Source: a virus (Duplodnaviria; Caudoviricetes). Taken from it: DNA of 64,000 nucleotides. The stretch covers positions 98,355-162,354 of IMG/VR virus record IMGVR_UViG_3300029305_003514. One strand, written 5' to 3'. Below are positions 7,146-31,300 of this stretch, piece after piece. The position numbers and the translations under genes were made by a program. Under the pieces are notes generated by a model. That model was not told the DNA's origin. It saw nothing but the letters and a program-made list of their open reading frames with translations, and searched no databases. The number at the start of each line of letters is the position of its first letter. The first letter of the stretch is position 1.

Positions 7146-7163
7146 TTTACAATACAAAATTAA
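7146..7163 (+). promoter_or_regulatory. Motif TTNACAAYACAAAATTAA, copy 1, upstream of the clpP-phoH-HU block
   Basis: TTTACAATACAAAATTAA; also at 17074, 18301 and 29049. Confidence 0.65.
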
Positions 7164-7269
7164 CGAGTAATTTACTTACATTTTTGAGATAGGGCTTTAT
7201 TTTTCTATAATGATAAGAAAGTATAAAGCCTTATCTTATAAAATTAACAAAAACAACGGAGGTACAAAT

Positions 7270-7899
7270 ATGAGTGATATGTTAAATGAACTATTGGTAG
7301 GTATTCCTGAGAATGTTGCTAACTTACAGCTTCCAGATCCTACTCTTAGACAGTTTTATTTGGACGAGGAAGATCGTGTCTTTTATGTAGATGACACAAT
7401 CAACGCTTCTACTCTTGATCTTGTTAAAATGATTATGCGTTGTAACAGAGAGGATAAGGGTAAGCCCGTAGAAGCACGTAAGCCTATCACTGTTATGATT
7501 GATAGCCCTGGTGGTTCTGTAGAATGTCTATTATCTATTATTAAGACAATTGATCTTAGCAAGACTCCAGTTAGAACTGTATGTTATTGTTCTGCAATGA
7601 GTGCAGCTGCAGATTTACTTGCTAGCGGACATAAAGGTATGAGATATTGCCTCCCCGGTACAAGTGTAATGATGCATTCTGGAAGTTGTGCATATCAGGG
7701 TACTGCTAGTCAGGTTGATGCCGCAAAGAAATTTTTTGATGCTATGGGTAAAAGAGTTACCGATCATGTTTTCAGCAGAACTGAAATTGATACAAAAACT
7801 CAGCGAAAAATGAAAGATGACTATTATATGAATGAAGAAGACGCTTTAAAACTTGGCATCATTGACCATATTATTGATGATTTAGATGTGTTGTTTTAA
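7270..7899 (+). CDS. clpP: ClpP-family protease subunit
   Basis: IDSPGGSV, AMSAAA (Ser), MMH (His), DYYM..EDALKLGIIDHI; GGAGG RBS before ATG 7270. Confidence 0.85.
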   Translation: MSDMLNELLVGIPENVANLQLPDPTLRQFYLDEEDRVFYVDDTINASTLDLVKMIMRCNREDKGKPVEARKPITVMIDSPGGSVECLLSIIKTIDLSKTPVRTVCYCSAMSAAADLLASGHKGMRYCLPGTSVMMHSGSCAYQGTASQVDAAKKFFDAMGKRVTDHVFSRTEIDTKTQRKMKDDYYMNEEDALKLGIIDHIIDDLDVLF

Positions 7900-7911
7900 A
7901 GGAGGGTGTTT

Positions 7912-8619
7912 ATGTCTAGTAAGAAGAAACAGACATTTGAAACTTATGGTGATGTACCTAGAGATTTAAATGACCATCCATTTTATGGAATAAAACTAGA
8001 TAAAGACCAGTTAAATTTTGCTAATGCAATTTTAAATCCTGAAAAATTAATCGTTTTTTGTGATAGTAAAGCAGGAACTGGTAAAACCACTATAGCAACG
8101 GGCGTTGCAAATCTTTTAGTTCAGCATAGAGAATATGATGGTATTGTTTATATTGCTGCGCCGGTTCAAGAAGAAAAACTGGGATATATGCCTGGAGATT
8201 TACAGAGTAAAGTTAGTTTGTATTTTGATCCATTGTATCAGGCATTAATTAAATTAAATATTACTCCAGAGAATGTCATAAATCAATTGGCTATAGAGAA
8301 TATGAAAAATGGTACTGGTTATATAGATACGATTACACACGTTTTTTTAAGAGGCCAAAATTTTGAAAATAAAGTTGTTATTATCGAAGAGGCTCAAAAC
8401 TTATATCTTGATGAACTCCGTAAAGTATTAACTAGAATTCATGATAATTGCAAAACAATTGTTATTGGACATTGCGGCCAGTGTGATTTATATCATAACC
8501 CACAAAATAGTGGATTTGCTAAATATATTGAGCATTTTAGAAATGAGCCATATGCTCAAGTTTGTGAATTAACTAAGAATTATAGAGGCAAAGTTTCTAC
8601 TCATGCAGATAGCCTTTGA
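7912..8619 (+). CDS. phoH: PhoH-family ATPase
   Basis: AGTGKT Walker A, EKLGYMPGD, FLRGQNF, IIEEAQN, LTRI. Confidence 0.9.
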   Translation: MSSKKKQTFETYGDVPRDLNDHPFYGIKLDKDQLNFANAILNPEKLIVFCDSKAGTGKTTIATGVANLLVQHREYDGIVYIAAPVQEEKLGYMPGDLQSKVSLYFDPLYQALIKLNITPENVINQLAIENMKNGTGYIDTITHVFLRGQNFENKVVIIEEAQNLYLDELRKVLTRIHDNCKTIVIGHCGQCDLYHNPQNSGFAKYIEHFRNEPYAQVCELTKNYRGKVSTHADSL

Positions 8620-8640
8620 GTAATTATTAGGAGGTGCAAA

Positions 8641-8937
8641 ATGGAACTTCGAAAAAAGGAAATTGTAAATGAATTAGCAAAAAGATGTGATTTTTATAAA
8701 AAATCTGTTGAGCAAATTTTAAATGAGTTAGAGAATATTATTGTTGAAAATTTGGGTCAAGCAACTCTTGATGAAGATATAGAGATTCATCTTGCAAAAG
8801 GACTGGTTATTGGAGCTAAAAGATATCCAGAACGTGAAGCACATGACCCAAGAAATCAAAAGACTATTATAACTCCAGAAAAATCCATTCCATATGCTAA
8901 ATTTACATATACGTTTAAACAAAAAATTAACGAATGA
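8641..8937 (+). CDS. HU/IHF-like DNA-binding protein
   Basis: KKEIVNELA helix, REAHDPRNQKTIITP arm and terminal FKQKIN. Confidence 0.75.
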   Translation: MELRKKEIVNELAKRCDFYKKSVEQILNELENIIVENLGQATLDEDIEIHLAKGLVIGAKRYPEREAHDPRNQKTIITPEKSIPYAKFTYTFKQKINE

Positions 8938-8945
8938 GGTGCGGT

Positions 8946-10148
8946 ATGGAATATAGAAAATTAAATGAAGAAAATGAGAATGAGTATATATTGCGAATAT
9001 GTTCTATGAAAGAGCGGAATAATTGGACATGGGAAGATATTGCCAAGATTTTAAATGAGTCTTTGGGAAATAATTTTGGTGAATCTGCATATCGTAAGAA
9101 ATATCAGCATTTTAAAAAGATGCTTGAGGATAATGAGTCTAAAATATTCCCTGAAGATGCATATTTGAAGAAGATTCAAGAAGAGAAGATTGAACTCGAA
9201 AAAGAGCGTCAGAAATTATATACTACCAAGGTTGAAATGCAGCGAAGAATCCGTCAGGAAGCTCGTTTCGAGATGTTTTATGAAAACGTAAAGAATGCAA
9301 TTGAGATTCTTCCTATGCCTGAAATTAAAAGAAATATAGAGTCTTTTAATAATGAGAAAGAATATCTATTGTGCATCGCAGATATTCATGCTGGAGCTAA
9401 ATTTGATCTTCCTACTAATAGTTATTCTATGGAGGAATGTGAGCGCAGATTTAGTGTGCTGCTAGATAGAGTTGTTGATTATGTTAAAAAGAATGACATC
9501 GGATTAATTCGTATAGCATCTCTTTCTGATGATATCCAGGGTATTCTTAGAATTAGTGATTTACAGCTTAATGAAACTTCTGTAGTTGAGGCTACTGTAT
9601 TTGTAGCAAGATTGATTGCGAGTTTCTTAAATGAGTTATCTGCATATTGTTATGTAGATTATTATCATGTTGGACAATCTAACCATTCTCAAAATAGAAA
9701 TCTTGGCACAAAAGCTAGTGAATTAGCTAGTGAGGATGTAGAGTATATAATTGGCAATTACATTAAGGATATGTTGAGATTTAATAATCATGTTGATGTT
9801 AATACTAATTTTGGACATGATTATATTAATATTCCCATTTTTGATTATAATATTCTAGCAATGCATGGTCATACTATTAATAATTTAGATACTGCATTAA
9901 AGGATTTAAGTACCTTACATAATAAATTAATAGATTATTTAGTTGTAGGACATATGCATTGTAATAAAACTATTCAAGGCAACGAGCGCGACTCGTATGA
10001 TACTGAGGTTTTAATGTGTCCCTCTTTCCAAGGCACCGACCCATTTGCTTTTAATAAGCTAGGAAAGAGTTCAAAAGCGGCATGCAAGATGTTTATTTTT
10101 GATGAAAAGTACGGCTGTACTGGTACGGAAAAGTTTATATTAAATTAA
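8946..10148 (+). CDS. Calcineurin-like metallophosphoesterase with N-terminal HTH/coiled coil
   Basis: DIHAG, DDIQG, SNH, MHGH and GHMH motifs. Confidence 0.8.
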   Translation: MEYRKLNEENENEYILRICSMKERNNWTWEDIAKILNESLGNNFGESAYRKKYQHFKKMLEDNESKIFPEDAYLKKIQEEKIELEKERQKLYTTKVEMQRRIRQEARFEMFYENVKNAIEILPMPEIKRNIESFNNEKEYLLCIADIHAGAKFDLPTNSYSMEECERRFSVLLDRVVDYVKKNDIGLIRIASLSDDIQGILRISDLQLNETSVVEATVFVARLIASFLNELSAYCYVDYYHVGQSNHSQNRNLGTKASELASEDVEYIIGNYIKDMLRFNNHVDVNTNFGHDYINIPIFDYNILAMHGHTINNLDTALKDLSTLHNKLIDYLVVGHMHCNKTIQGNERDSYDTEVLMCPSFQGTDPFAFNKLGKSSKAACKMFIFDEKYGCTGTEKFILN

Positions 10149-10154
10149 AATGTT

Positions 10155-10184
10155 TACGAGGGGCTTCGGCTCCTCGTATTGTTT
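10155..10184 (+). terminator. Intrinsic terminator
   Basis: TACGAGGGGC-TTCG-GCTCCTCGTA followed by a T-rich tail. Confidence 0.75.
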
Positions 10185-10203
10185 ATAGAAAGGAAAAGTT
10201 ACT

Positions 10204-10401
10204 ATGGAAGAGAAAAAGTGTAAGATTATTTTTAATGCAGGCGTAGCAAGAAATTTACTTAAAATGGGTTGCCAGATCGTTGATATTAAGCCTGATCGTG
10301 CAAACCCTGATCGCTCTTTATTTATTTTTGAGAGAACTGATGCATTTGAAAAGGCTTTTGCTGAAATAAATACTGCATTAAAGAATAAGAGTGCTGAGTA
10401 A
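10204..10401 (+). CDS. Small DUF5659-like protein
   Basis: IFNAGVARNLLKMG...IVDIKP...SLFIFE pattern. Confidence 0.6.
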   Translation: MEEKKCKIIFNAGVARNLLKMGCQIVDIKPDRANPDRSLFIFERTDAFEKAFAEINTALKNKSAE

Positions 10402-10441
10402 TTTAATTTATTAAATACTAGACGAAGGGAGGGAGATCGCT

Positions 10442-11671
10442 GTGGCTAAAAATCCAGGTAAAAGATCTACAAAGAAAGAAACAAAAGAATATCTCTGTCC
10501 TTATTGTAATGTTATAAAAAAAGAAAGCGATTTTTATACAAGTTCAGATCCACTTGTAATGACTGGTAAAACTTCTATGTGTAAAGATTGTGCTGAAAAG
10601 ATCGCAAGAAATTGGGATGGTCGAAAGCGTATGTACGGAGAGTGTACTAAGGTTTCGGTACAAGAGGCGCTCGAACGTCTCGACAAACCATGGCTTGATA
10701 ATATTTGGGATGCTAGTTATTTTGAATATATAAATAGTGACGCTGGTAATAAAAAAACTAATATATGGGCCGCATATATTAAAAATATTGGTATGCCGCA
10801 ATATCGTGGTATGCGTTGGCGTGACGGAGATTTATTTTCTAATTATAAAGAGACGGCGATCAAACAAGCACGTCAAGAGGTTCAAAATGATGAAGTCCCT
10901 AAAGAGCAAGAGATTAGCGAAGAATATGTAAAAAATAAATTAGATGTTATTAGACTTCTTGGTTATGATCCATTTGAAAAGGAGCAAGAAGAAGATAAAC
11001 CCCTTCTCTACTCTCAATTAATTGGATATCTCGATGCCAGTGGAGAAAATGATGATATGATGAGAACATCATCAGCCATCACTATTGTGCGCGGATTTTT
11101 ACAGCAAGCAAAGCTTGATGATATGATAGCGAAGGCAATGAGCTCTCCTAATGTCGCCAATAAGACTGGCGAGATCAAGTCTTGCCTAGACGCGAAGCAA
11201 AAGGTTGCCTCAACAGTATCGCAACTTGCGGAGCAGTCTTGCCTCAGTTTAAAGCATAATAAGAATCAAAGTAAGGGCGAAAATACTTGGACTGGAAAAA
11301 TTAAAAAAATTAAAGAACTTAATTTGCGTGAAGGAGAAGTTAATGGCTTTGATATAGGTACATGTCGTGGCATGCAGCAAGTTATGGATTTAAGTAATGC
11401 TTCTATCTTAAAACAGCTTGCTCTTGATGAGTCAGAATATACTGATATTATTGCGGAACAAAGAAAGCTTGTAACTAACCTCACATTAGAAAGAGATAAT
11501 TATAAAGAGATAAGCAGAATTTTACTTAGGGAAAACTTAGATTTAAAAGATACTTTATCAGAAAATGAGTTATTATTACCGGAAAATCTTGTTGATTTAA
11601 ATGAGCTCTTCTCTGCTTTTAGCGAAGTCGAACAGGAGGAGACAGAAGATGAACAGACAGATGAAAATTAA
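10442..11671 (+). CDS. Zn-finger protein upstream of terminase (possible small terminase subunit)
   Basis: CPYC/CKDC N-terminus; position directly before and overlapping terL. Confidence 0.55.
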   Translation: MAKNPGKRSTKKETKEYLCPYCNVIKKESDFYTSSDPLVMTGKTSMCKDCAEKIARNWDGRKRMYGECTKVSVQEALERLDKPWLDNIWDASYFEYINSDAGNKKTNIWAAYIKNIGMPQYRGMRWRDGDLFSNYKETAIKQARQEVQNDEVPKEQEISEEYVKNKLDVIRLLGYDPFEKEQEEDKPLLYSQLIGYLDASGENDDMMRTSSAITIVRGFLQQAKLDDMIAKAMSSPNVANKTGEIKSCLDAKQKVASTVSQLAEQSCLSLKHNKNQSKGENTWTGKIKKIKELNLREGEVNGFDIGTCRGMQQVMDLSNASILKQLALDESEYTDIIAEQRKLVTNLTLERDNYKEISRILLRENLDLKDTLSENELLLPENLVDLNELFSAFSEVEQEETEDEQTDEN

Positions 11672-13697: not shown

Positions 13698-13717
13698 AAA
13701 GGATGGTGAGAATACTT

Positions 13718-15223: not shown

Positions 15224-15231
15224 GGTGCAAT

Positions 15232-15411
15232 ATGAATAAAAAATTTGTAATTACTACTGATAAATCTGTGGCAGATAAACTTTCTGCTGCGGGTTTTGTT
15301 TTAGTGTCTGAAATTGGAGGCACATATACTTTTATGAATAATCAGAAGAATTTTAACTTTTCTGATATTGGTAAAGGTAAAATACATCATACAAATGTTT
15401 TAAGCCTATAA
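15232..15411 (+). CDS. Small protein (DUF5659-like)
   Basis: GAGGTG RBS; FVITTDKSVADKL..AGF.LV..YTFMN. Confidence 0.6.
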   Translation: MNKKFVITTDKSVADKLSAAGFVLVSEIGGTYTFMNNQKNFNFSDIGKGKIHHTNVLSL

Positions 15412-15455
15412 TCTCCACCAGGAGTTTATAAATTCTAATGAAAGGAGGAAGATAT

Positions 15456-17069
15456 ATGGGTAAAAGAATATTAACTCTTGATAATTTATACGAGTTTTTT
15501 GTGCAGCAAGGTAAGAACTTTAATTTTAATGATAATAAAAGTCCTATTGTAGTATCAGTTCCTGGCACATTTGCGGCCAGTGAAGATGATATGCCTGGAA
15601 TGTTGAAGTTAAAATTAAAAGTTTGTCATACTTTATTAAATAGAAATGGCAGTTTTATTTCTCAGGAAAATATGGAAAACGCAATGCCTACTTTAAAATA
15701 CCGTCCTATTTTAGCTTATATTCATGAGCTTGAAGATGGAACTAAAGATTTTTATGCTCATAATGTTGAATTTATTGAGAATGAAGATGGCGAAGAAGAA
15801 GTTGTATATCTTGAGAAGCAAGTTGGTTGCTTTACAGCAGATCAACCTTGGCTAGAATATGATAAAGATATGGACAAGACTTATGTTATGGCCTACGCTG
15901 TTATTCCAGAAGAATACACGGAGACTGCAGATATTATCCGCAGAAAGAATGGAACTAAAGTTTCATGTGAGCTAGTTATTAATGAACTTGCTTATAATGC
16001 TAAAGAAAAATATCTGGATCTTACTGATTTTTATTTTGGAGCAACTACTCTACTCGGCTCCGATGAGCATGGTAATGAAATTGGTGAAGGTATGCTTGGC
16101 TCTAGAGCTGATATTACAGATTTTTGCCACAAAGAACCTGTGTTTACATATCAAGATAAATTAGTTGAAGTTTTAGATAAGTTAAATATTACTTTATCTA
16201 ACTTTAATATAAACCAATCTGAAGAGGAAGGAGGAAATGAAGAGATGAACAAATTTGAGGAGCTTCTAGCTAAATATAATAAGACTACCGAAGATATCAC
16301 TTTTGAAATTGAGGGTCTTTCTGATGATGAACTAGAGGCAAAATTCAAAGAGGCTTTCGAGGAAACCGAAACTGTGGAAGTAGAAACTGAAGAAACTACA
16401 GTCGTTGCTGAGGAAGAAGAAACTGTAATTGAGAATTCTTCTGATTCTGAAGATGGTGACGAAGATCCTGTAGAAGAAAAGTTTACTAAGACTTTCTCAG
16501 TTGAGCTATCACATGATGATATTCGTTATGCGCTATATAATCTAATCAGTGTTTATGAAGAAGAAGATAATGAATGGTATGGTATTTATGCTGTTTATGA
16601 TTCTTATTTTGTAATGCAGGGTTGGATGAATGGTAAATTCTATAAACAGAGTTATACCGTTGATGGCGAAGATGTTTCTCTAAGTGGCGATAGACAGGAA
16701 ATGTTCTTAATGCTTCTAAGCGAAAGTGAAAAATTAGAAGTAGAAAGTATGCGTAAGGATTATTCTGTATTAAAGGAATTTAAGGAGAATTATGAATCTG
16801 CGCAGTTAAAGGTTCAGAAAGATGAAATTCTTGCTCGTGAAGAATATTCCGAGTTAACTGAATCTGATGAATTTAAGGCTTTAGTTTCTGATATGGATAA
16901 GTATTCCGTAGAGGAATTAGAGGTTAAGTGCGACCTATTATTTGCCGCACATGCTAAGGCTGCTTTTGCTGTTGATAACAAAGATAAGAAGCCTGTCGCT
17001 ATGAAATTTAATGTAAAAACAGTTGATAAGACAAATGATAAACCTTATGGTAATCTATTTGATGACTAA
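15456..17069 (+). CDS. Prohead protease/scaffold protein
   Basis: LNRNGSFI and KVSCEL motifs in the N-half; acidic coiled-coil C-half; position between portal and capsid genes. Confidence 0.7.
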   Translation: MGKRILTLDNLYEFFVQQGKNFNFNDNKSPIVVSVPGTFAASEDDMPGMLKLKLKVCHTLLNRNGSFISQENMENAMPTLKYRPILAYIHELEDGTKDFYAHNVEFIENEDGEEEVVYLEKQVGCFTADQPWLEYDKDMDKTYVMAYAVIPEEYTETADIIRRKNGTKVSCELVINELAYNAKEKYLDLTDFYFGATTLLGSDEHGNEIGEGMLGSRADITDFCHKEPVFTYQDKLVEVLDKLNITLSNFNINQSEEEGGNEEMNKFEELLAKYNKTTEDITFEIEGLSDDELEAKFKEAFEETETVEVETEETTVVAEEEETVIENSSDSEDGDEDPVEEKFTKTFSVELSHDDIRYALYNLISVYEEEDNEWYGIYAVYDSYFVMQGWMNGKFYKQSYTVDGEDVSLSGDRQEMFLMLLSESEKLEVESMRKDYSVLKEFKENYESAQLKVQKDEILAREEYSELTESDEFKALVSDMDKYSVEELEVKCDLLFAAHAKAAFAVDNKDKKPVAMKFNVKTVDKTNDKPYGNLFDD

Positions 17070-17073
17070 TGGT

Positions 17074-17091
17074 TTAACAACACAAAATTAA
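17074..17091 (+). promoter_or_regulatory. Motif TTNACAAYACAAAATTAA, copy 2, upstream of the capsid genes
   Basis: TTAACAACACAAAATTAA in the short intergenic gap. Confidence 0.65.
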
Positions 17092-17117
17092 TTTGAAAAT
17101 TATAGGAGGATTATATT

Positions 17118-17597
17118 ATGGCTCAGGATTTAATGAATAAACACTGGGTTGCCGAGATCTCTCGTGTCTCTGCAGTGTATGGTGATGGTCACATTCTATC
17201 TGGTGAAATGGATAAGGATCGTGATAATGGTGAGTTAGTTGCAGTTGTTGATTATAAGGAAGGCGAGTACTACATTGTAGGCGCATTCTCTGGCGACTTC
17301 AGCGCAAAGGTAATTGAGATTGTTCCTAAGAGCAATCAGACTATGGTTCGTTTTGAGCTACAGGCAGATTGTGATGCTTATTTTGTACACAATCCCGAGA
17401 CTATGCCTAACGATTTCTTAAAGATTTATCAGGAAATCTTTAACTACTACAACAAGGCTGGCGAGCGTGCTCGTATGTATCCTATGAAGAAGCATGATGT
17501 ATTTACTGTTTCTGTTGATGCTTTTGGTGGCGTTGTTCCCGCTGTTGGCGCTGTAGTAACTTGGTCTGACGCTGCTGGTTACGGCGTTCAGGGCTAA
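17118..17597 (+). CDS. Putative capsid decoration/minor head protein
   Basis: 159 aa between scaffold and MCP; DNG.LV motif; strong RBS and high-expression codon bias. Confidence 0.6.
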   Translation: MAQDLMNKHWVAEISRVSAVYGDGHILSGEMDKDRDNGELVAVVDYKEGEYYIVGAFSGDFSAKVIEIVPKSNQTMVRFELQADCDAYFVHNPETMPNDFLKIYQEIFNYYNKAGERARMYPMKKHDVFTVSVDAFGGVVPAVGAVVTWSDAAGYGVQG

Positions 17598-17625
17598 TTG
17601 ATATTTTGAAAGGAGGAAATTAATT

Positions 17626-19966
17626 ATGGCTAATTTTATGAGATTTAATAGCACCGTTCAGGCTGCTTTTGATAACAATTCTGAAAACTTTGCTAACTTC
17701 CAGAAGCTTCTAGTTGATGCTGCTAATAAGGAAGTTAAGGAATATTCTGCTAAGGAAGCTAACGCTAAGATTGTTGAGAAGTTCCGTGCTGCTCTAGGCA
17801 TTTCTAAGGAAGATAAGCCTCAGTTTGTTAAGCGTGCAATCCGCGCTAACCGTGAGTTAGTATTTACCATTATTGAAGAGACTATTGAGGAGGTTCTTAT
17901 CGCTGGTTGGATGGAGAATCCTTTCTTCATGCAGTTCGTTGATAGCCGTAACCTAGCTCTAAATGATGAGAATGACTTCTATGTTGAAGACGATTCTATT
18001 CTAAGTGTTTCTAAGGTAAGCGGTAATCACCATAATATGATTCGCCAGAGATTAGGTGCTGGTAGACATTTCTCTGTTGCTGGCGAATGGTTTGGCATTA
18101 AATTTAGTGCCCTTATAGCGTAAGCTGTTCGAATAAAATATGCATCGAATTGCTGGAAAATCCTAAAGCTGTATTGGCTACAACGTGGTGTGTAAACACG
18201 AGCGTGAATGCTACGAAAGTAGAAAAAACAAATACAGATTACATATGGTTAAATCCTAAGTGTAACTATAATGGATAATCAGCAGCTAAGTTCCCAAATA
18301 TTGACAATACAAAATTAATGTAGTATAATATTTGCGGAAAAAGTTCAACGACTAGTCGGAAGACGTAGGATTACAAGCGATTGGTAATCCGAAGTGGTGC
18401 ATACCCATTATTATGGGTAAAGATATAGTCTGATCTTTAGTGAAAGCTAAAGGGTTTTAAACCAACATAGGAGTAGCGTCCTAAATATCATTTTTCTGAA
18501 TAATTACATAAAGGTTTGAGCTAATGAGAAAATATTTATGTGGAATTTACTGCATAGAAAATATAATAAATAATAAAAAATACATTGGTTTATCACGGGA
18601 TATATATAGAAGATGGAATGAACATAAAAGCGAACTCCGTAATAATAGTCATGCAAACATTTATTTGCAAAGAGCATGGAATATAAATGGAGAAGAGGCT
18701 TTTAAGTTTAATATCTTAGAATTATGCGACCCTTCTGTTATTTGTGACAAAGAACGTTATTATATTGCAAAATATCATACACTATCTCATGAAAATGGAT
18801 ACAATTTAACAAGTGGTGGCGAAAGCGCCCCGACTACTAATAAAAAAGTTATTCATTTATTATCTGGGAAAGTATACGAATCGGTAAAAGAAGCGGCAAA
18901 AAATAATAATGTCGTTGATATTACTATGATAGATTGGTGTAAAAAATATTATAATTTTATGTATTTTGATGAGTATAATTCAATGGATCAAGAACAAATA
19001 AATTATTATACAAATTTTGATTGGACAACATTTGTACATAATAAATTAAGTAGAGCACATTCTCGTGAAAATTTAAGTCAGGAGTCGCTATTACGATATA
19101 GTCAATGCACTTCTGGTAAAAATAATCCAAGAGCAACCGCTATTTATTCACCAGAATTAGATGAGTCGTTCTGGGGAGCAAAAGAGGCGTCAGAAAAGTA
19201 TGGAGTTAATCATACTAGTATTTCGTCTTGTATTAACGGAAAATTAAAACATGCAGGCAAACATCCTGTTACTGGTAAGCCATTAACATGGCAAAAAATA
19301 GAAAAATGATATTTTAATGTTAAACACAAATGTAAGATTTACGCTGATTTTGAGCGCGTTCTTCTAGGCGCTGAGGATTGGGCTTCTTTTGTAACTAAGG
19401 TTACTGAAGCTATCAACCGTTATCTCTATGACGCACTTTACGCTTCTTTACGTGGCGCTAAGGAAAGCCTTGGTGCTAACTGGGTTAAGTCTGGTGCTCT
19501 AGAGACTGCTAACAAGGCTACTCTTGTTAAGCTTTGCCAGGATATTTCCATGGCTACCGGTTCTGAGGTTACCATCTTTGGTGCTCGTACCGCTCTATCT
19601 TCTCTAACTGCTATGGCTGATGTTAATTGGCTTTCTGAGAATATGAAGGACGAGTATTATAAGAACGGCGGCATTCTTGGTAACTGGGAAGGCTTCCAGG
19701 TTGCTGAGATTGGTCAGGGTCTAAAGCGTGGCGCTTCTATCAATAGCGCTTCCGTTGAGTATCAGCTTGATACCGACAGACTTTACATCATCCCCACTTC
19801 TGTTGCAAACAAGTTTATCAAACTTGTTAACTATGGTGAGACTCAGGTTTCTCAGGTTACTGATAAGGATACCAACAGAGATATGAGCCAGGAATACGAA
19901 GTACTCTACAAGATGGGTATTAACGTAATTCTCGCTACCGTATTTGGTGTTTGGGAAATCATCTAA
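17626..19966 (+). CDS. Major capsid protein, spliced: join(17626..18098,19333..19966), 368 aa
   Basis: Removing the intron gives ...EWFG-I-KIYADFERVLLGAEDW... in frame with track ORF 19550..19966; size, position and codon bias fit an MCP. Confidence 0.85.
18301..18329 (+). promoter_or_regulatory. Consensus sigma-A/70 promoter inside intron 1, overlapping motif copy 3
   Basis: TTGACA-17 nt-TATAAT, with ACAATACAAAATTAA at 18304-18318. Confidence 0.8.
18524..19309 (+). CDS. Intron-encoded GIY-YIG homing endonuclease
   Basis: GIYCIENIINNKKYIG, RRW..H, ERYYI, GYNLTSGG; NUMOD-like C-terminal HTH. Confidence 0.92.
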   Translation: MRKYLCGIYCIENIINNKKYIGLSRDIYRRWNEHKSELRNNSHANIYLQRAWNINGEEAFKFNILELCDPSVICDKERYYIAKYHTLSHENGYNLTSGGESAPTTNKKVIHLLSGKVYESVKEAAKNNNVVDITMIDWCKKYYNFMYFDEYNSMDQEQINYYTNFDWTTFVHNKLSRAHSRENLSQESLLRYSQCTSGKNNPRATAIYSPELDESFWGAKEASEKYGVNHTSISSCINGKLKHAGKHPVTGKPLTWQKIEK

Positions 19967-19997
19967 TTAATTTTAAAGGATAAAAGGAGAAAATAAT

Positions 19998-20564: not shown

Positions 20565-20578
20565 GGAGGCTGATATAT

Positions 20579-21004: not shown

Positions 21005-21006
21005 TT

Positions 21007-23737: not shown

Positions 23738-23768
23738 TTATTATAAAATTTATTAGGAGGAAAATATT

Positions 23769-24536: not shown

Positions 24537-24546
24537 TTTATTAATT

Positions 24547-24575
24547 AAGGCCCCTGTTTTTCAGGGGCCTTTATT
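24547..24575 (+). terminator. Intrinsic terminator-like hairpin
   Basis: AAGGCCCCTG-TTTTT-CAGGGGCCTT. Confidence 0.7.
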
Positions 24576-24599
24576 AAAATATTTTAAAGGAGGCTAATT

Positions 24600-25034
24600 A
24601 TGGCAAAGTCTAAACGTTCCTGTTATTTATGTGGGAACACTTATGAATATTGTGACTGTAATCGCCAGCCCCCATTCATGGCAACTTTCTGCTCAGAAAA
24701 TTGTAAAGATATATTTAAAACATTATGCTCTTACGGTTCAGGCATGATTTCTGCGGAAGATTGCAAGGAGTTGCTCGGTTGTTGTGATTTAAGCAATAAA
24801 GATTCTTATAAGGAGTCCATCCGTGGCACTATTGATAATTTATATGCTATTCCTTCAGTAATAATTGAAGAACCTAAAGTGGCAGAAGAGCCAGTAGTGG
24901 AATCGGTTGTCGAGGAAGTTATCGAAGAGGTTAAATTAGAACAACCCGCAGAAATTCCTGACGGTATTCCTGAATTTAATTTAGCACGCAAAAATAAAAA
25001 GCGTAAACATGAAGTAGTTGTAGAAGATATCTAA
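24600..25034 (+). CDS. Cys-rich protein with acidic linker
   Basis: CYLCG..YEYC..FCSENC; AAGGAGG RBS. Confidence 0.7.
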   Translation: MAKSKRSCYLCGNTYEYCDCNRQPPFMATFCSENCKDIFKTLCSYGSGMISAEDCKELLGCCDLSNKDSYKESIRGTIDNLYAIPSVIIEEPKVAEEPVVESVVEEVIEEVKLEQPAEIPDGIPEFNLARKNKKRKHEVVVEDI

Positions 25035-25069
25035 TAAGGTGCTACTTTATGTGGTACCTTATTTTTTTT
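25033..25069 (+). terminator. Intrinsic terminator
   Basis: AATAAGGTGCTA...TGGTACCTTATT followed by a T run. Confidence 0.65.
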
Positions 25070-25090
25070 CGGACAAAAGGAGAAAGCATT

Positions 25091-25309
25091 ATGACAAAAA
25101 GCGGATTAATTCCCGGTGTTGAATATAGTCCAACCAATGTTGCTTATATTACAAATTTGCGCCAAGCATATTTGTATTTAAGAAACGGTGCAAAGTTGGT
25201 AGATATTTTATATTTTAATACCAAAAATGATTCTTTAGTATTTTTATTTGAAAAATCTACACATCTTAAATTATTATATGAGCTGTGGAATAAACATGAA
25301 TTAGTATAA
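25091..25309 (+). CDS. Small DUF5659-like protein
   Basis: AAGGAG RBS; YITNLRQAYLYL.NG...LVFLFEK...LYELW. Confidence 0.6.
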   Translation: MTKSGLIPGVEYSPTNVAYITNLRQAYLYLRNGAKLVDILYFNTKNDSLVFLFEKSTHLKLLYELWNKHELV

Positions 25310-25325
25310 AGTAAGGAGGCTAAAA

Positions 25326-28300
25326 ATGGCACGTTCATTTGAAGAATCTAAAAAACTATTAATGCAACAAGCAGCAACGTCAATGATGATGTCATCGCCT
25401 ACTGATAATATTGGAATAATGACGTTGGCTGCCGATGATACCATGGGAATTCCAGCATATTCCGAATTTACAAGAAGCGATAAATATATTTGGAATGATC
25501 AATATGCCGACAATAGGATATCTAATATTGATGAAAATAAAAATATTACACTTGATAGTTCTCAGATTAATATAACCCAAGAAGAAAATAGCCAATATAT
25601 TCCATTCCAGATGCCAAGATATGCTGATGGTTTTGATTTAATGTCTACCGCCATTTCTATTCATTACTTAACAAGTGATGGATATCATGGAGAAGCCGCA
25701 CCAATTAATGTTAGTTATGATACTGCGACTATTAGATTTGGATGGCTTATAGATGGAAATGTAACTCATGTAGCGGGAAATGTTAAGTTTGAAATTCGTG
25801 CAATCGGTGTAAATAATAATGGCAACGGGTATATGTGGAAGTCAAAAACATTTGAAAAGTTAAATGTTTTAAAATCATTGATTGATGACAGAACCATAGA
25901 GTTAGATAAAACATGGCTCGAGGATCTTGTTACTAGAGTAACTGAAAATGTTACCGAGCAAATTGCAGAAGTGCAAGTCGCTGAACAAGTTGCGGCTGCA
26001 GAAAGTGCCGCCAATAGAGCTGAAACAGCCGTTGAAACAATAGGCGCATCATTAAATAATTATTATACAAAATCAGAAGTAGATAACGCTGTTGCTAATG
26101 TAAAAGTTGATTTAACAGGATATGCTACTGAGTCATATGTCCAACAACAAATATATACAATTCCAGAATTATTTTTAAGTGACTATGCGTTAAAATCTGA
26201 TATTCCAACAAATATTTCTGAGTTTGTTAACGATGCTGGATATTTGACTGAGCATCAAAGTCTTGAAGCATATGCATTAAAATCTGAAATTCCAAGTATT
26301 GCAGGATTAGCTACTACGTCTTATGTAGACGAAGCCGTTGCAAATGTTGATGTAACCGATCAGCTATCAGAGTATGCTAAAGTTTCAGATGTTTACACTA
26401 AGGGCGAAATTGATGAAGCAATTTCTAATGTTGAAGTTGACCTTAGCGGCTATTACACTAAAACTGAAATTGATACTAAGACTGGTACTTTGGCTGATTC
26501 TATTTCAACTAATACAGATAGTATTACATCTTTGAATAATACAGTCAAAGATATCAATCAAAGTTTAGAAAATATAGATCAAGCTCCTCGCGTAACATAT
26601 GAAGCAACATATGGCAATGTAGATATGGATGATGGTACTACTGCGGAGTATATGTTTACTCTTTGGGAAACCGAGGGCGAAAATACCCCGACTGTTAAGA
26701 GTCGTTTTCAAATTATGGGAGGCGGCGGACAAACTAGTAGCGTAGTATTACGTATTGCTTATGTTGAAGGATATGCCACCCCTATTGTTGCGACTATTAA
26801 CGATCCTGTAATTGTAAAATATGAATTTTCTGGCGAAGACTCTGCCGGAGATACCAATCTGGATGGTACTGCATCTTGGAAGGTCGGCAATAGAGTTGTT
26901 GCTACTGAGGAAGTTTCTACTGGTATTTGTGAATTTGATTTAACCAAATATGTAAGTATTGGTGATAATAAAATAGTTCTTACTATCACACATGCAACTG
27001 GTGCAATTGCAACTAAGGCATGGACTATTAAAGTTGTTGATGTTAGATTAGAATCTAGCTTTGATGATACTCGTAAATATGTTGCTGGTGAAAATGTTAG
27101 TTTTACATTTACTCCATATGGTGGTGTTGATAAAACTGTGCATTTTCTATTGGATGGCAAGGAAATTGCGACAAAAACAAGTCCTGCATCCGCTGCTGGT
27201 TTGTCAGATTCTTATATGATTCCTGCGCAAGAACACGGAGTTCATTTATTTGAAATTTATTTAACAACAGTTATTAATAATAATACTATTGAATCTAATC
27301 ATATTATAAAAGATGTTATTTGGTATGATGAAAATTCTGATGTGCCAGTTATTAGCTGTATTGATCAGGACTTTACTGTTCGTCAGTATGATGTTAAAAA
27401 CATTGTTTATACTGTTTATGATTCTAATACCGAGACTCCTAGTGTAAATTTGCGTGCTACTTATGTAGATGAAGAAGGTAATACTATTGAGGAATTTAAT
27501 TCTAATTTAGTATTAAATTCTAATACTCAAACCTGGCAGTATAAGAGTGATGTTATTGGAGAGCATATTCTTACAATTACTTGCGGAGAAACTGTTAAAA
27601 CTTTAGTTGCCACAGTTACTGAACTCGGAATCAATATAAGCCCAATCACTGCGGGATTAGCATTTGATTTTAATCCTGTTGGATATTCTAATAGTGATGA
27701 GAATCGTTTGTGGTCTAGCGGAGATATTGCAATGACAGTATCTGAGAACTTTGACTGGGTAAATGGCGGATATCAAATTGATGAGAATGGTAACCAGTAT
27801 TTCTGTATTAAAGCTGGTACAAGCGCAGATATTAATTATGAGCTATTTGGTGATGATGCCAAGGTTGATGGCAAACAAATGAAGCTTATTTTTAAGACCA
27901 TGAATGTTGCAGACACCGAAGCAACATTTATGTCATGTGTAAGCCAATCTTCTGCAGGTGACAATATTGGTATTGTTATGAAGGCACATGAGGCAATAAT
28001 TTATGCTAGTGCAGACCAAGATAAATTACCATTACCATACGCAGAAGAAGAAATTATTGAATTTGAGTTTAATATTACACCTAGCACAGAATCTCCATCT
28101 ATGATTATGGGTTATGAAGATGGTGTGTCTACCAGACCTTTTGTATATAATAGCACACATAATTTCCAACAGCAAATGGGTTCTAGAAAAACAATTACTC
28201 TCGGATCTCCTGATTGTGATTTGTATATTTATCGCTTTAAGGTGTATAAGAATTCTCTATCTGATAGAGATATTTTAAATAACTTTATTGCAGATGCTCG

Positions 28301-31300
28301 TAGTGCAGAAGAAATGATTGCTCGTTATGATCGTAATCAGATTTATAAAGAAGGCATCCTTGACCCAGATTATCTGGCGGAAGTTTGCCCTGATTTAAGA
28401 ATTATTAAGTTAGAAGTGCCCTATTTTACTAGCGATAAAGATGAAAAAATTGGTCGTTTTATTAGTTCGACTGGTGATGAGTTAATTTCTAGTGTTGAAT
28501 GTATATACAAAAATGGTGATCCAATTTTAGATAACTGGGTTGCAACTGATATTGTACACAGCGGTCAAGGAACCTCTTCTAATAACTACGGCCCCGCAGG
28601 TCGAAATCTTGATATCATTATTAAGAGATATAGAGATAAAAAGACCGAAAAATATTTGAACGAGAATCCTATTATCACTTTAAGTGATGGCACTGAGGTT
28701 AATAAGGTTTCTTTAACAAGAAACTCTATTGATGTTAATTACTTCAATGTAAAAGTTAATATAGCTAGTTCCGAAAATGCAAATAATGCTTTGCTTGCAA
28801 AGAGATTTAATGCATATCAGCCTTATAAGCGTCCAATTGTACGTGATACTGAGGCGGAAGCAGCTAAGGTTAAGGATACTATGGAATTCCAGAATTGTGT
28901 AATCTTTGTTAAAGAAAGTGATCCAGATTTAAGTACTCATCGTGAGTTTAATGATAACAATTGGCATAAAATAGCGTAAATGTGCCAGTAAAACTCTCAC
29001 TAATATACGGCGAAACCCCAGAGATGGGCAACGCCTTCCAACTATATATTCACAATACAAAATTAATGTAAAGGAGGTGCAATATGAGTATAATAATAAA
29101 TGGAAAAGAATATTATGGCATTATTTATAAAATTGAAAACATTATAAACCATAAAGTTTATATTGGGCAAACTTCGCAAGAACGAGGTTTTAAAGATAGA
29201 TATTGCAGAAAAGGACAAGGTATAGAACGAGTATACAATAGCTATTTGTATGAACAAAAACACAATAGATCTTATAATATTCATTTGTTTAGAGCGATTG
29301 AAAAATATGGTTTTAATGCTTTTGTTATAGACGAAATATTTGATGTTGCTTTAACTGAATGTGAACTGAATGAAAAAGAAATGTTCTATATAAAACAGTT
29401 TGATAGTTTTTATAATGGTTATAATTCAACATTGGGCGGAGAAGGTATGAGTGGATATCAACCACCAACTGGTAAAAATCATCAACAAAGTGTGCGTGTA
29501 TGTCAAATTAGTCCAGATGGCAAACTAATTAAAATTTGGGATAGTTTTGGTGATATTTACAGAAAACTTGGACTTGGCAAAGGTGCGATTTCTAATGTGT
29601 GTACTGGTCGTAAAGAGACTTCAGGTGGATTTGTATGGGTGTATGAAAAAGATTACGACCCAAATAGGGATTATAGTCGCATTCCTAAAACAAGGGGAGG
29701 AAGAAATTTTTCAAAGCCAGTGTTGTTATTGGATTTAAACAATAATATTATACAAGAATTCTTTTCTGCTGTTGAAGCAAGTACATTTTTTGGGATATCT
29801 AAACAAGAAGTGAGCAGAATATGCAGACACGAAAGAAAGAAACCAAAATACAATTTAATTTTTAAAAGTGAATATATAGAGGAACAACGACTGAACGTGA
29901 GAGACATTGTATGTTGATTGCAATGTATGCAACAGTCTGAACTGCGGCTATAATCTTATAATGAAACCGCAGAGAAGAGGTCAAGTGTAAAGACACTTTT
30001 GGAAGAACCTCTTTCGCCTATAATATATAGGTATAAATAGTTGACTTCCGACAGCTATTAGTAACATATTGTTTTACGCAATCGGAAATTTTGGTGACTC
30101 TAAGAAGGGCGACGATAGTAGATTAACTGATCCATCCGACCCCTATGAGTGTATCCTTGAAGTTATGGATAATGAGCTTCCTAACTCTACTATGCCTACT
30201 GGTATAGTTGATGAAAATGGCGCTCCTGTTTATCCTATTCCTCCTGAACAGTGGGTTGCTGGCAATCCTGCTTTCGATGCCCTTGCTGGCGAACTATTTG
30301 ATGAGAGCAAGAGTGATGATAAAGAAAATGGACTAGCAGACACCTATGGCTGGCGTTATATTTACGAAGACGGAACTGATGAACAGAATGCAGAATATAA
30401 GGCATATGTTGAAAATAAGTGGCGCGAATTCTATACATTCGTAGTTACTGCTACTAATGAAGAATTTAAAGCTCATCTTGGTGACTATTGTGTGCTAAAT
30501 TCTGTAATGTATTATTATCTATTTACCCTTCGTTATACTATGACCGATAATCATGCTAAGAACTCTTTCTGGCATTATGGTAAAACTGGAGAGGTTGATT
30601 CTAATGGTAATCCAATTCGTAAATGGGATTTAAACTTTGACTATGATAATGATACATCTTTAGGAATTGATAACTATGGTCGTATGACCTATCGCTATGG
30701 TTATGAGGAAATTGACTATGTTGATGGAACAAACGATTGGGTTTGGAATGCACCACAGCATGTATTCTTCTTACGTCTACGTGAACTATTCGATGAAGAG
30801 CTTAGCGCTCTATACAACGTACTCCCAGCAGACTGTTGGAGTGCAACTTCTCTAATTAACCAGTTTAATGACTGGCAAATGCAATTCCCAGAAGAATTAT
30901 GGAGACTCGATACGGAACGTAAATATATTCGTACCTATACAGGTTCTTATATTAATGGCCCCGCATATCCCGAGTTCCTAACTGAGCGTGCTAATGGTCG
31001 TAAGAAGACTCAGCGCGCACAATATGAAAAGAATCAAGAAAAATATATGGCATCCAAATTTGGTAGTACCGTAGCTGCGGCAGATGATATCATCCTGCGC
31101 TGCTCCGTGCCTAATACCACTCTTGCCGTACCCGCAAACTTTGATATGCATCTAACTCCATATGCTTATATGTATATAAATGTTAAATATAATACCTCTC
31201 CTCCTATTAAGGTGCGTGCCGTACCTAATCAGGAATATACAATTGAGTATACTGGAGACGTAGCCGACATTATTGAGATTTATAGCGCATCCTGCTTAAA

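What the first reader, a model, noticed from the sequence alone, without database searches (positions are those of the whole stretch)
7146..29066. Recurrent 18-nt motif TTNACAAYACAAAATTAA: candidate phage RNAP promoter or operator, also carried by both introns
Seen: four copies, all + strand and non-coding: 7146 (before clpP), 17074 (before capsid genes), 18301 (intron 1 P6 region) and 29049 (intron 2 P6 region, next to the endonuclease RBS). Only the 18301 copy has a good -10 box. Established: YonO of SPbeta transcribes late genes, and T4 intron endonucleases have their own phage promoters. Inference: the motif is the recognition site of the YonO-like RNAP or of a phage regulator overlapping -35, and the introns have captured it.
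Basis: partly seen in the sequence, partly recalled or inferred. Interest (0 to 1): 0.7.

Follow-up and report, generated by a model that had tools for sequence, protein, structure and literature searches.

The report
Repeated operator of an integrase-fold phage repressor
The recurring 18-nt motif is real and occurs about 30 times in this 162-kb gut phage, and it is most likely the DNA box bound by the phage's own integrase-shaped master repressor (as in Bacillus phage SPbeta), not the promoter of the phage's YonO-like RNA polymerase.

Summary
All four copies sit at the stated coordinates, and none is expected by chance. The whole 162-kb phage has about 30 copies. 28 of 30 point the same way as the local genes, and at least 21 are intergenic. 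At least six related IMG/VR phages carry 27-35 copies each.

The copies fall into three contexts:
- directly after the -10 box of strong sigmaA promoters (1-nt gap in most);
- inside the -35/-10 spacer, as in the intron 1 copy;
- between a stop codon and the next RBS, with no host promoter, as in the 7146 and 17074 copies.

Three copies precede tRNA genes.

The phage encodes a 299-aa homologue of MrpR/YopR/SroF, the monomeric integrase-fold master repressor of SPbeta and phi3T. That repressor binds a long, asymmetric, A-rich repeated box (SPBRE/Phi3TRE) found in the same three contexts. SPbeta and phi3T have 98% identical YonO but different boxes, so such boxes follow the repressor, not the polymerase.

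Verdict: an SPBRE-type operator, a new member of a known kind. Binding is inferred, not shown.

The parts
7147..7165 (+). Motif copy 1 (core 7149-7163). It has no sigmaA promoter. It lies about 20 nt after the stop of the ORF that follows the YonO-like RNAP gene and ahead of the late (protease, terminase, portal) genes.
   Evidence: the best upstream sigmaA score is 7-9 of 13. The same position is occupied in relatives G001, G005 and G006.
7180..7244 (+). Strong leader hairpin between copy 1 and the RBS/ATG (7270) of the ClpP-like protease gene.
   Evidence: MFE -25.7 kcal/mol, z = -4.97, 0 of 200 shuffles as stable. Relatives also have hairpins after this copy.
17075..17093 (+). Motif copy 2 (core 17077-17091, variant ACAACAC...). 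It has no sigmaA promoter. It begins 7 nt after the stop at 17069 and ends 26 nt before the ATG at 17118, ahead of the capsid genes.
18302..18320 (+). Motif copy 3 (core 18304-18318). It fills the spacer of a perfect sigmaA promoter inside intron 1.
   Evidence: (TTGACA-17-TATAAT, 12/12, 18301-18329).
18089..18452 (+). Catalytic core of group I intron 1, in the capsid gene. The motif lies in its P6 insertion.
   Evidence: RF00028, 85.8 bits, E 1.9e-20.
18524..19309 (+). Endonuclease ORF of intron 1, downstream of the motif-bearing promoter.
   Evidence: (ORF) and the sequence. I did not run a family assignment for this ORF.
29050..29068 (+). Motif copy 4 (core 29052-29066). A weak -10 (TATATT) ends 1 nt before it; the RBS follows after 5 nt and the ATG is at 29084.
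28980..30068 (+). Intervening sequence 2, a presumed intron with a GIY-YIG homing endonuclease ORF at 29084-29917, splitting a giant structural gene.
   Evidence: the exon ends are contiguous in G002 and G003; homing endonuclease PHROGs; no Rfam hit, so the intron class is unproven.
3435..6239 (+). YonO-family single-chain RNA polymerase gene. It is context, not part of the element as I read it.
   Evidence: tblastn to SPbeta-group yonO at 27% identity, E 1e-24, and to c-st and Enterocloster phages at 35-36%; phrog_8308.
6232..7128 (+). Overlapping 'partner' ORF after the RNAP gene. This gene pair is conserved in relatives and in phages PMBT24 and BUCT082.
   Evidence: same arrangement; 30-44% identity in the family. 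Function unknown.

Best explanation
The motif is this phage family's version of the 'repeated element' of SPbeta-like phages (SPBRE in SPbeta, Phi3TRE in phi3T). That element is a long, asymmetric, A-rich operator. One molecule of an integrase-fold, non-recombining master repressor of the MrpR/YopR/SroF family clamps around it.

The candidate repressor is the 299-aa product of G000:C1:65720-66619 (minus strand). It lies outside the window, 31.7 kb before the window's start.

Inferred mechanism:
- A bound repressor covers about 20 bp.
- Where the box starts 1 nt after the -10 hexamer, it would block open-complex formation or promoter escape by host sigmaA RNA polymerase.
- Where the box fills the -35/-10 spacer, as in intron 1, it would block polymerase binding.
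- Where there is no host promoter, as at 7146, 17074 and most other copies, it would act as a roadblock to read-through, or cover promoters not yet recognised.
- In a lysogen or carrier state this would keep early genes, tRNAs, the late operon and the intron-borne homing endonucleases silent. An inverted copy in the repressor's own promoter would give autoregulation.

Shown here: the motif's statistics, its contexts and its family-wide conservation; the homology and fold of the protein; and the equivalence in architecture with the experimentally defined boxes.

Inferred only: that this protein binds this motif, that it represses, and that the phage is temperate.
For: 1. The element is real and genome-wide.
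- There are about 30 copies at up to 2 mismatches, against 3 for the reversed control.
- It is the only strongly over-represented k-mer in the genome.
- 28 of 30 copies are co-oriented with the local genes.
- At least 21 of 30 lie between gene calls that cover 90% of the DNA.
- About 150 genes have an RBS without the motif, so it is not general RBS context.

2. Six relatives carry 27-35 copies each, with controls of 0-1. Median protein identity to them is only about 43%.

3. The contexts fit an operator.
- 11 of the 16 best sigmaA promoters carry the motif.
- In five genomes, 31 of 60 promoter-linked copies start exactly 1 nt after the -10 box, and 22 lie in the spacer.
- Three copies precede tRNA genes.

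4. A repressor homologue is present.
- Pfam MrpR_N_CB scores 56.4 bits, E 4.7e-15.
- PDB sequence hits: SroF-phi3T (9rd5) at E 1.5e-12 over residues 2-267, and YopR/MrpR at E 1e-10.
- BLASTP to SPbeta YopR gives E 4e-13.
- Foldseek on the AF2 model puts SroF-DNA, SroF-Sar, MrpR and YopR on top (E 4e-11 to 2e-10). True recombinases reach only 1e-4.
- The gene follows a XerD/YopP-like integrase, as yopR does in SPbeta.
- It is full-length in all four relatives checked, at 46-63% identity.

5. The known boxes behave the same way.
- My k-mer scan of BUCT082 and phi3T recovered GAATAAAAATAAAAT. That is the reverse complement of the core of the 26-bp box crystallised with SroF (bioRxiv 10.1101/2025.11.27.690993).
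- The SPBRE I derived de novo, AAATACAAAWAATATGTATA, lies at the ChAP-seq peaks named in PMC10516654.
- Both known boxes occur in spacers, after the -10 box, directly before an RBS, and just before yonO.

6. SPBRE and this motif share 12 of 17 positions in register, including AATACAAAA and the terminal ATG. I estimate p at about 0.02.

7. An inverted copy lies in the spacer of the repressor gene's promoter in G000, G002 and G003.

8. Residues aligned with the SroF DNA readers L25, Y26, F234, H237 (Y here) and R238 are invariant within the family.

9. SroF binds as a monomer and reads an asymmetric box (same preprint), which explains a non-palindromic site.
Against: - No binding or repression data exist for this protein or this motif.
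- About 60% of copies in the family (116 of 198) have no recognisable sigmaA promoter within 120 nt. A promoter-occluding repressor does not obviously need them.
- The near-total co-orientation with transcription is not required for a DNA-binding repressor, although the SPbeta and phi3T boxes show the same bias.
- The box is identical across relatives whose repressor homologues are only 46-63% identical. SPbeta and phi3T SroF, about equally diverged, read different boxes.
- G005 and G006 lack the inverted copy at the repressor promoter.
- The C-terminal domain matches Pfam MrpR_C_cat only weakly (E 4.5e-4, below the cut-off). The region aligned to SroF helix alpha18 is deleted.
- The AF2 model is of moderate quality (pLDDT 69).
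- No Sar-like antirepressor or canonical SOS box was found.
- A temperate lifestyle is inferred only from the integrase and the repressor.
Confidence: 0.68

Rival explanations
1. The motif is the promoter, or part of it, for the phage's YonO-like RNA polymerase, alone or with the overlapping downstream ORF as specificity factor. Transcription would start at or near the conserved G two bases after the 15-mer.
For: - The phage and all six relatives encode the polymerase.
- About 30 near-identical, co-oriented, intergenic copies per genome resemble the promoter sets of phages that carry their own RNAP.
- Most copies lack host promoter elements.
- One conserved copy lies right after the RNAP-partner gene pair, ahead of the late genes. 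That position is analogous to P_YonO upstream of yonK (PMC5467207).
- In 9 of 198 sites a hairpin starts within a few bases of the conserved G, as would suit a 5'-terminal stem.
- The YonO promoter sequence is unknown (PMC5467207).
Against: - The copies also sit at fixed register on strong sigmaA promoters of early-type genes: DNA polymerase, HU and tRNAs.
- There are no copies in the roughly 56 kb of tail and lysis genes.
- An inverted copy in the repressor promoter would fire antisense.
- Some copies are followed at once by terminator-like hairpins with U tracts.
- In the SPbeta group the equivalent repeats are repressor boxes, and they differ between SPbeta and phi3T although YonO is 98% identical (PMC10516654).
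- The primer-bounded P_YonO region of SPbeta holds no SPBRE.
- The motif is unchanged where the RNAP is only 39-41% identical.
Confidence: 0.1
2. The motif acts in RNA or at the promoter itself. It would be a conserved initially transcribed region and 5' leader (ACAAAAUUAA plus RBS) tuned for promoter escape, translation or stability, or a processing site that gives internal genes the same 5' end.
For: - The distance to the RBS is short and uniform. The start codon follows 10-21 nt after most G000 copies, and an SD-like word starts within 6 nt of the motif end at 101 of 198 sites.
- With the 1-nt gap, the sigmaA start site falls inside the motif, so primary transcripts would all begin with the same leader.
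- In some copies the motif lies 12 to about 100 nt downstream of the -10 box, fully inside the transcript.
Against: - With the 1-nt gap the first 5-7 bases are not transcribed, yet they are as conserved there as elsewhere.
- Spacer-type copies lie upstream of the start site.
- Three copies precede tRNAs, which have no RBS.
- About 150 genes have good RBSs without the motif.
- An inverted copy is conserved at the repressor promoter.
- No complementarity or structure partner was evident.
Confidence: 0.08
3. The element is bifunctional. It is the repressor's box, and also the entry or start signal used by the phage polymerase or another phage factor once the repressor is removed.
For: It would explain the mixture of host-promoter-linked and promoter-less copies, the strict co-orientation, and the conserved copy at the head of the late operon.
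Against: There is no direct evidence. It adds a second unproven function to the first. The analogous SPbeta boxes are not reported to have it (PMC10516654; PMC5467207).
Confidence: 0.08

Closest known systems
SPBRE (SPbeta repeated element), operator of the master repressor MrpR (YopR/SroF) of Bacillus phage SPbeta (PMC10516654)
   Same: - A 15-20 bp non-palindromic A-rich box in many copies across the phage, co-oriented with the genes.
- Found in -35/-10 spacers, just after the -10 box, directly before an RBS, and in degenerate form before yonO.
- The phage encodes an integrase-fold repressor placed after a YopP-like integrase.
- The phage also has YonO, an HU-like protein and a YonJ-like exonuclease.
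- 12 of 17 positions are identical in register.
   Different: - SPbeta has about 10 bound regions; this phage has about 30 copies, most without a host promoter.
- The preferred position here is 1 nt after the -10 box.
- Copies occur inside group I introns, before tRNAs and before late genes.
- The protein is only 25% identical and 26 aa shorter.
- Binding is untested here.
Phi3TRE box with the SroF repressor of phage phi3T (PDB 9rd5, 9rgl; bioRxiv 10.1101/2025.11.27.690993)
   Same: - A monomeric clamp reading a long asymmetric box.
- It is the best sequence and fold match of the 299-aa protein.
- The related phage BUCT082 carries 25 copies at up to 1 mismatch (41 at up to 2), in mixed contexts.
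- Residues aligned with the DNA readers L25, Y26, F234 and R238 are kept.
   Different: - The box sequence is different (GAATAAAAATAAAATTACTG).
- The phi3T boxes often lie just upstream of the -35 element.
- The helix alpha18 readers (Q300, K304) have no counterpart here, and the conserved box is shorter (about 19 bp against 24 bp).
- No Sar-like antirepressor was found.
Promoter sets of phage-encoded RNA polymerases (T7 class II/III promoters, from my own knowledge; P_YonO of SPbeta, PMC5467207)
   Same: Many near-identical, co-oriented, intergenic copies in a phage that encodes its own polymerase. One copy lies between the polymerase genes and the late genes.
   Different: - The copies sit in register on host promoters of early genes and in inverted form at a repressor promoter.
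- They are absent from the tail region.
- SPbeta uses a single mapped YonO start, with no repeated box at it.
Own promoters of intron-encoded homing endonucleases in phage T4 (from my own knowledge)
   Same: The endonuclease ORFs of both intervening sequences have their own upstream signal inside the intron. Intron 1 has a perfect sigmaA promoter.
   Different: Here the signal carries the phage's repeated repressor box. That would tie endonuclease expression to the lysis-lysogeny switch rather than to late or middle timing.

Membership tests
SPBRE/Phi3TRE-type repeated operator (SroF/MrpR system) | A long (15-26 bp), non-palindromic box present in many copies spread over the phage genome | tested here: met
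   About 30 copies in G000 and 27-35 in each relative, against controls of 0-3. The conserved span is about 19 bp.
SPBRE/Phi3TRE-type repeated operator (SroF/MrpR system) | The phage encodes an MrpR/YopR/SroF-family protein (integrase fold; CB plus CAT domains) | tested here: met
   Pfam MrpR_N_CB 56.4 bits; PDB sequence hits at 1e-10 to 1e-12; Foldseek top hits 9rgl, 9rd5, 8a0a, 8bj6. The C-terminal Pfam domain is below its cut-off.
SPBRE/Phi3TRE-type repeated operator (SroF/MrpR system) | Boxes overlap or adjoin promoters of phage genes | tested here: met
   14-15 of 30 copies in G000 and 82 of 198 in the family touch a strong sigmaA promoter. The rest have none, as do some SPbeta-group copies.
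SPBRE/Phi3TRE-type repeated operator (SroF/MrpR system) | The repressor binds the box and represses (ChAP-seq, EMSA, reporters) | not testable with these tools
   This needs purified protein or in vivo assays. The complex predictor offered does not take DNA.
SPBRE/Phi3TRE-type repeated operator (SroF/MrpR system) | Loss of recombinase catalytic residues | not tested
   Indirect only: the protein matches the MrpR Pfam families and not Phage_integrase, whereas its neighbour matches Phage_integrase at 122 bits.
SPBRE/Phi3TRE-type repeated operator (SroF/MrpR system) | Cognate small antirepressor (Sar) under an SOS box | tested here: inconclusive
   No GAAC-N4-GTTC box in G000. The neighbouring 99-aa ORF is not similar to Sar. 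A palindrome CAAACATATGTTTG sits on that ORF's promoter.
Promoter of a phage-encoded RNA polymerase (YonO type) | The phage encodes the polymerase | tested here: met
Promoter of a phage-encoded RNA polymerase (YonO type) | The repeated motif tracks the polymerase rather than another factor | tested here: not met
   In the SPbeta group YonO is 98% identical between SPbeta and phi3T while their repeated boxes differ. No box lies in the primer-bounded P_YonO region. Within this family the test gives no answer.
Promoter of a phage-encoded RNA polymerase (YonO type) | Polymerase-dependent primary 5' ends at a fixed distance from the motif | not testable with these tools
   No transcript data are available.
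   Met by 4 of 30 copies in the genome and 1 of 4 in the window. T three bases before the core is only 41%.
Group I intron (carrier of copies 3 and 4) | Match to the RF00028 catalytic core | tested here: met
   This holds for intron 1 only, at 85.8 bits. The second intervening sequence gives no Rfam hit. Evidence that it is an intron is limited to the split-gene comparison and its endonuclease ORF.

The most novel reading that the evidence does not exclude
The box may do more than block host promoters. The many promoter-less, strictly co-oriented copies, including the conserved one at the head of the late operon, could be polar roadblocks or insulators that let one monomeric repressor silence a 160-kb genome gene by gene. 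Alternatively the same box could double as the start or loading signal for the YonO-like polymerase once the repressor is displaced. That second case would give the first sequence-defined promoter for this polymerase class.
Probability: 0.12. Interest if true: 0.75.

Novelty: new member of a known kind. Interest (0 to 1): 0.45.

Why it matters
Integrase-fold monomeric repressors and their repeated boxes were described only in 2023-2025, and only for Bacillus SPbeta-like phages. These phages share only about 25% repressor identity with SPbeta.

It supplies a precisely defined box, a candidate repressor and about 200 natural sites for testing. It also indicates that tRNA genes, late genes and intron homing endonucleases are wired into the switch.

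It removes a tempting but probably wrong candidate for the still unknown YonO promoter.

Tried and rejected
- Megablast of 17 kb of the window against INPHARED phages found no match.
- Rfam on the second intervening sequence found no hit at E up to 1.
- Sigma70_r2 in the genome: none, so I found no detectable phage sigma factor to explain the motif.
- I tried to place the SPbeta P_YonO start site (position 2225998 of strain 168). The paper's primers bound it to L045 545-738. A genome-contig scan for the forward primer found nothing, so the exact base could not be placed. That stretch holds only a weak resemblance (ACACAAAAC), which I do not count as evidence.
- The motif is absent beyond chance from c-st, PMBT24 and BUCT082. 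PMBT24 showed no clear dominant repeat.
- I first took promoter-less copies to be 'more perfect' than promoter-linked ones. That held in G000 but not across the family, so I dropped it.
- General RBS context was rejected.
- The 16S rRNA complementarity and IHF-site ideas were considered from memory only and found unconvincing. I ran no test.
- The XerD-like integrase as the binding protein: it is not similar to YopR and only weakly similar to YopP. Its neighbour is the MrpR homologue.
- The Sar-like antirepressor and SOS-box searches were negative.
- A 21-mer repeated five times turned out to be a coding repeat in a tail gene, unrelated to the motif.

Full report
**1. The observation**

The pattern TTNACAAYACAAAATTAA matches four times in the window, at 7146, 17074, 18301 and 29049. 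All matches are on the + strand, and 100 dinucleotide-preserving shuffles gave none. Allowing three mismatches adds only one chance-level hit.

- The ORF map puts 7146 and 17074 in short intergenic gaps.
- Rfam finds a group I intron core at 18089-18452 (85.8 bits). The 18301 copy lies in the large insertion of its P6 region.
- The consensus scan shows that the 18301 copy starts a perfect TTGACA-17-TATAAT promoter, the best in the region.
- The fourth copy lies 17 nt before the ATG of a GIY-YIG homing endonuclease ORF.
- That ORF sits in a 1.09-kb insertion that interrupts a giant structural gene. The two exon ends are contiguous in relatives G002 and G003. Rfam does not recognise this insertion as an intron.

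**2. The four copies are part of a genome-wide set**

The window is the right-hand 64 kb of a 162,354-bp virus record that is about 99% complete. The core ACAATACAAAATTAA occurs 16 times exactly, 11 times with one mismatch and 3 times with two. The reversed control gives 0, 0 and 3.

- It is by far the most repeated 10-14-mer in the genome.
- Copies are on the minus strand through the minus-strand arm (23-94 kb) and on the plus strand from 96 to 127 kb. 28 of 30 agree with local gene direction.
- At least 21 of 30 lie wholly between crude gene calls that cover 90% of the DNA.
- There are none in the roughly 56 kb of tail and lysis genes.
- Over 161 sites from five related genomes, conservation runs from two bases before the core to two bases after it. 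T is 76% at +16 and G is 68% at +17.
- The G is kept even where no RBS follows, in 68 of 108 such sites.

**3. Three contexts**

In G000:

- Ten copies begin 1-2 nt after the -10 hexamer of a strong sigmaA promoter of the form TTGACA-17-TGnTATAAT. An eleventh begins 12 nt after.
- These lead the DNA polymerase, an HU-like protein, a tRNA and the first genes of the plus arm.
- Four copies fill the -35/-10 spacer, with TTGACA overlapping the first ACA. These are the intron 1 copy, one before tRNA-Arg, and two others.
- About twelve copies have no sigmaA elements. They include 7146, 17074 and, with only a weak TATATT, 29049.

Eleven of the sixteen best sigmaA promoters in the genome carry the motif.

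In five family genomes there are 198 sites: 60 promoter-linked (31 with a gap of exactly 1 nt), 22 in spacers and 116 promoter-less. The promoter-less copies are mostly squeezed between a stop codon and the next RBS.

About 150 genes have a normal RBS without the motif, so it is not RBS context. Three copies precede tRNA genes, which points to transcription rather than translation.

**4. Relatives**

The YonO-like protein led to one IMG/VR relative. An exact-motif scan led to several more.

- Six records of 128-170 kb each carry 27-35 copies, with controls of 0-1.
- All six encode the polymerase, at 39-87% identity.
- The family is diverse, with median protein identity about 43%, yet the box is unchanged.
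- The copy after the polymerase-partner gene pair is kept in G001, G005 and G006, and is followed by a hairpin in the latter two.
- In G000 the leader after 7146 folds into a strong hairpin, z = -4.97.
- A homologous intron in G001 has its copy at the same distance from the P7 strand but without promoter hexamers.

**5. What turned the reading**

Distant YonO-encoding phages lack this motif. However, a k-mer scan of Bacillus phage BUCT082 found its own dominant A-rich repeat, GAATAAAAATAAAAT. It has 25 copies at up to one mismatch and 41 at up to two, and it occurs in the same mix of contexts. phi3T has the same repeat in the spacer of the yonP promoter, before yonO and before yonT.

The literature identifies such repeats:

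- The SPbeta repeated element (SPBRE) is the ChAP-seq, EMSA and reporter-verified operator of the master repressor MrpR (YopR). MrpR is an integrase-fold protein without recombinase function (PMC10516654).
- A 2025 preprint shows that the phi3T homologue SroF clamps as a monomer onto a 26-bp box, CAGTAATTTTATTTTTATTCTTAATG, and reads 24 bp of it. It also shows that the SPbeta and phi3T repressors have different boxes (bioRxiv 10.1101/2025.11.27.690993).
- The reverse complement of that box contains the repeat I had found.

I then derived the SPbeta box de novo from the promoter regions named in the paper. The result is AAATACAAAWAATATGTATA, at yonP, yonT, yonX (twice), aimR, yopM, yopV and yorE. 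These copies lie in spacers (yonP, yorE), after a -10 box (yopV, yonX) and directly before an RBS (yopM, yopV). Those are the same three contexts as in this phage.

**6. The repressor homologue**

G000 has one Phage_integrase match, a XerD-like protein. The gene immediately after it, G000:C1:65720-66619 on the minus strand, encodes a 299-aa protein.

- It matches Pfam MrpR_N_CB at 56.4 bits (cut-off 27) and MrpR_C_cat weakly.
- It matches SPbeta YopR by BLASTP at E 4e-13.
- It matches PDB chains of SroF-phi3T (E 1.5e-12, residues 2-267) and of YopR/MrpR (E 1e-10).
- An AlphaFold2 model built from five family members has mean pLDDT 69.3.
- Foldseek on that model puts SroF-Sar, SroF-DNA, MrpR and YopR on top (E 4e-11 to 2e-10, TM about 0.5-0.57). 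True recombinases score only about 1e-4.
- The protein is full-length in all four relatives examined, at 46-63% identity, always after the integrase.
- Residues aligned with the SroF DNA readers L25, Y26, F234, H237 (Y here) and R238 are invariant in the family.
- The region of helix alpha18 (Q300, K304) is deleted. This might go with the shorter conserved box, but that is inference.
- In G000, G002 and G003 the repressor gene's own promoter carries an inverted copy of the motif in its spacer. That is a typical autoregulatory arrangement and hard to reconcile with a directional promoter. G005 and G006 lack it.

**7. Weighing the polymerase-promoter reading**

YonO transcribes the SPbeta late operon from one mapped start upstream of yonK, and its promoter sequence is unknown (PMC5467207). 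The paper's primers bound that start to L045 545-738. No SPBRE lies there.

YonO is 98% identical between SPbeta and phi3T, yet their repeated boxes differ and follow the repressor. By analogy, the motif here should follow the repressor as well.

Within this family the test gives no answer, because the polymerase and the repressor both vary while the box does not.

In favour of the promoter reading:
- the majority of copies are promoter-less;
- co-orientation is strict;
- a conserved copy heads the late genes;
- nine sites have a hairpin starting within a few bases of the conserved G.

Against it:
- copies sit in register on early sigmaA promoters;
- there is an inverted copy at the repressor promoter;
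- some of the hairpins look like terminators;
- the tail region has no copies.

**8. The RNA-level reading**

This is weakened by three observations. The untranscribed 5' half of the motif is equally conserved at sites with the 1-nt gap. Spacer-type copies lie upstream of the start site. Some copies precede tRNAs.

**9. Conclusion**

The motif is best read as the SPBRE/Phi3TRE-type operator of an SroF/MrpR-family repressor in a new, distant phage family. I put this at about 0.68.

- The sequence similarity between the boxes, 12 of 17 in register, is suggestive only. Windows matching that well occur at about 8e-4 in SPbeta DNA, which gives about 0.02 after allowing for offsets.
- Binding, repression and a temperate lifestyle remain to be shown.
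- The role of the promoter-less copies is the main open point.

An earlier first-reader note on the neighbouring window (e1-5756532) listed the minus-strand copies and called them an operator or leader motif. My scans confirm those positions.

Noticed in passing
window 7180-7275: A strong hairpin (z = -4.97) lies in the leader after the 7146 copy. The ATG at 7210 sits in its loop, and an RBS precedes the ATG at 7270, so the ClpP-like gene probably starts at 7270.
   Followed up: partly
window 3435-7128; L202 3869-7079; L203 3260-6870: The YonO-like RNAP gene is followed by an overlapping ORF of 240-320 aa with no known family. This is seen here, in Enterocloster phage PMBT24 and in Bacillus phage BUCT082, with an HU-like gene nearby in those two. 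It is a candidate polymerase cofactor.
   Followed up: partly
G000:C1:95990-96115 (just before the window): The divergent control region between the two gene arms holds tandem degenerate motif-like units (ACAATATAATATTA, twice). It also holds direct and inverted repeats of TTCCAAAAAATAGGACA just upstream of the first plus-arm promoter. These may be a second operator type or an origin.
   Followed up: no
G000:C1:65655-65668 (L217 439-452, minus strand): A perfect 14-bp palindrome, CAAACATATGTTTG, overlaps the -35 element of a sigmaA-like promoter for a 99-aa ORF right after the repressor gene. It is an SOS-box-like site and the ORF is an antirepressor candidate, but the ORF is not similar to phi3T Sar.
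   Followed up: partly
G005:C1:9364 and G006:C1:3370: In two relatives a motif copy sits directly before the RBS of the YonO-like RNAP gene. This mirrors the degenerate SPBRE/Phi3TRE copies before yonO in SPbeta and phi3T.
   Followed up: partly
G002:C1:146679-150505; G003:C1:89188-92414; G006 ends; L044 4620-7527; L201 4001-7934: The YonO-like gene is split into two or more pieces in several relatives, in phi3T and in phage c-st. This could reflect an intron, an inserted gene or a record break. It is intact in this window.
   Followed up: no
G000:C1:46900-50310 (L040 8904-12305, minus strand): A cluster of 10 tRNA genes. Motif copies precede tRNA-Leu(taa), tRNA-Arg(acg) and, in degenerate form, tRNA-Asn.
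   Followed up: partly
nine sites in G000, G002, G005 and G006, e.g. G005:C1:29856 and G000:C1:23916: The motif is followed within 1-13 nt by a GC-rich hairpin plus a T-run (terminator-like), and only then by the next gene's RBS. In some cases the stem starts at the conserved G.
   Followed up: partly
window 48139-49029 (minus-strand reading): A 21-mer, CAAATAAAGCATAATCTCCAA, recurs five times. It is the antisense of a coding repeat in a tail-region gene and is unrelated to the motif.
   Followed up: partly
L209-L215 (BUCT082, MZ969646.1): BUCT082 carries 25 copies at up to one mismatch (41 at up to two) of the phi3T-type SroF box core. That is far more than the ten MrpR peaks reported for SPbeta, and many stand directly before an RBS without a promoter.
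   Followed up: partly
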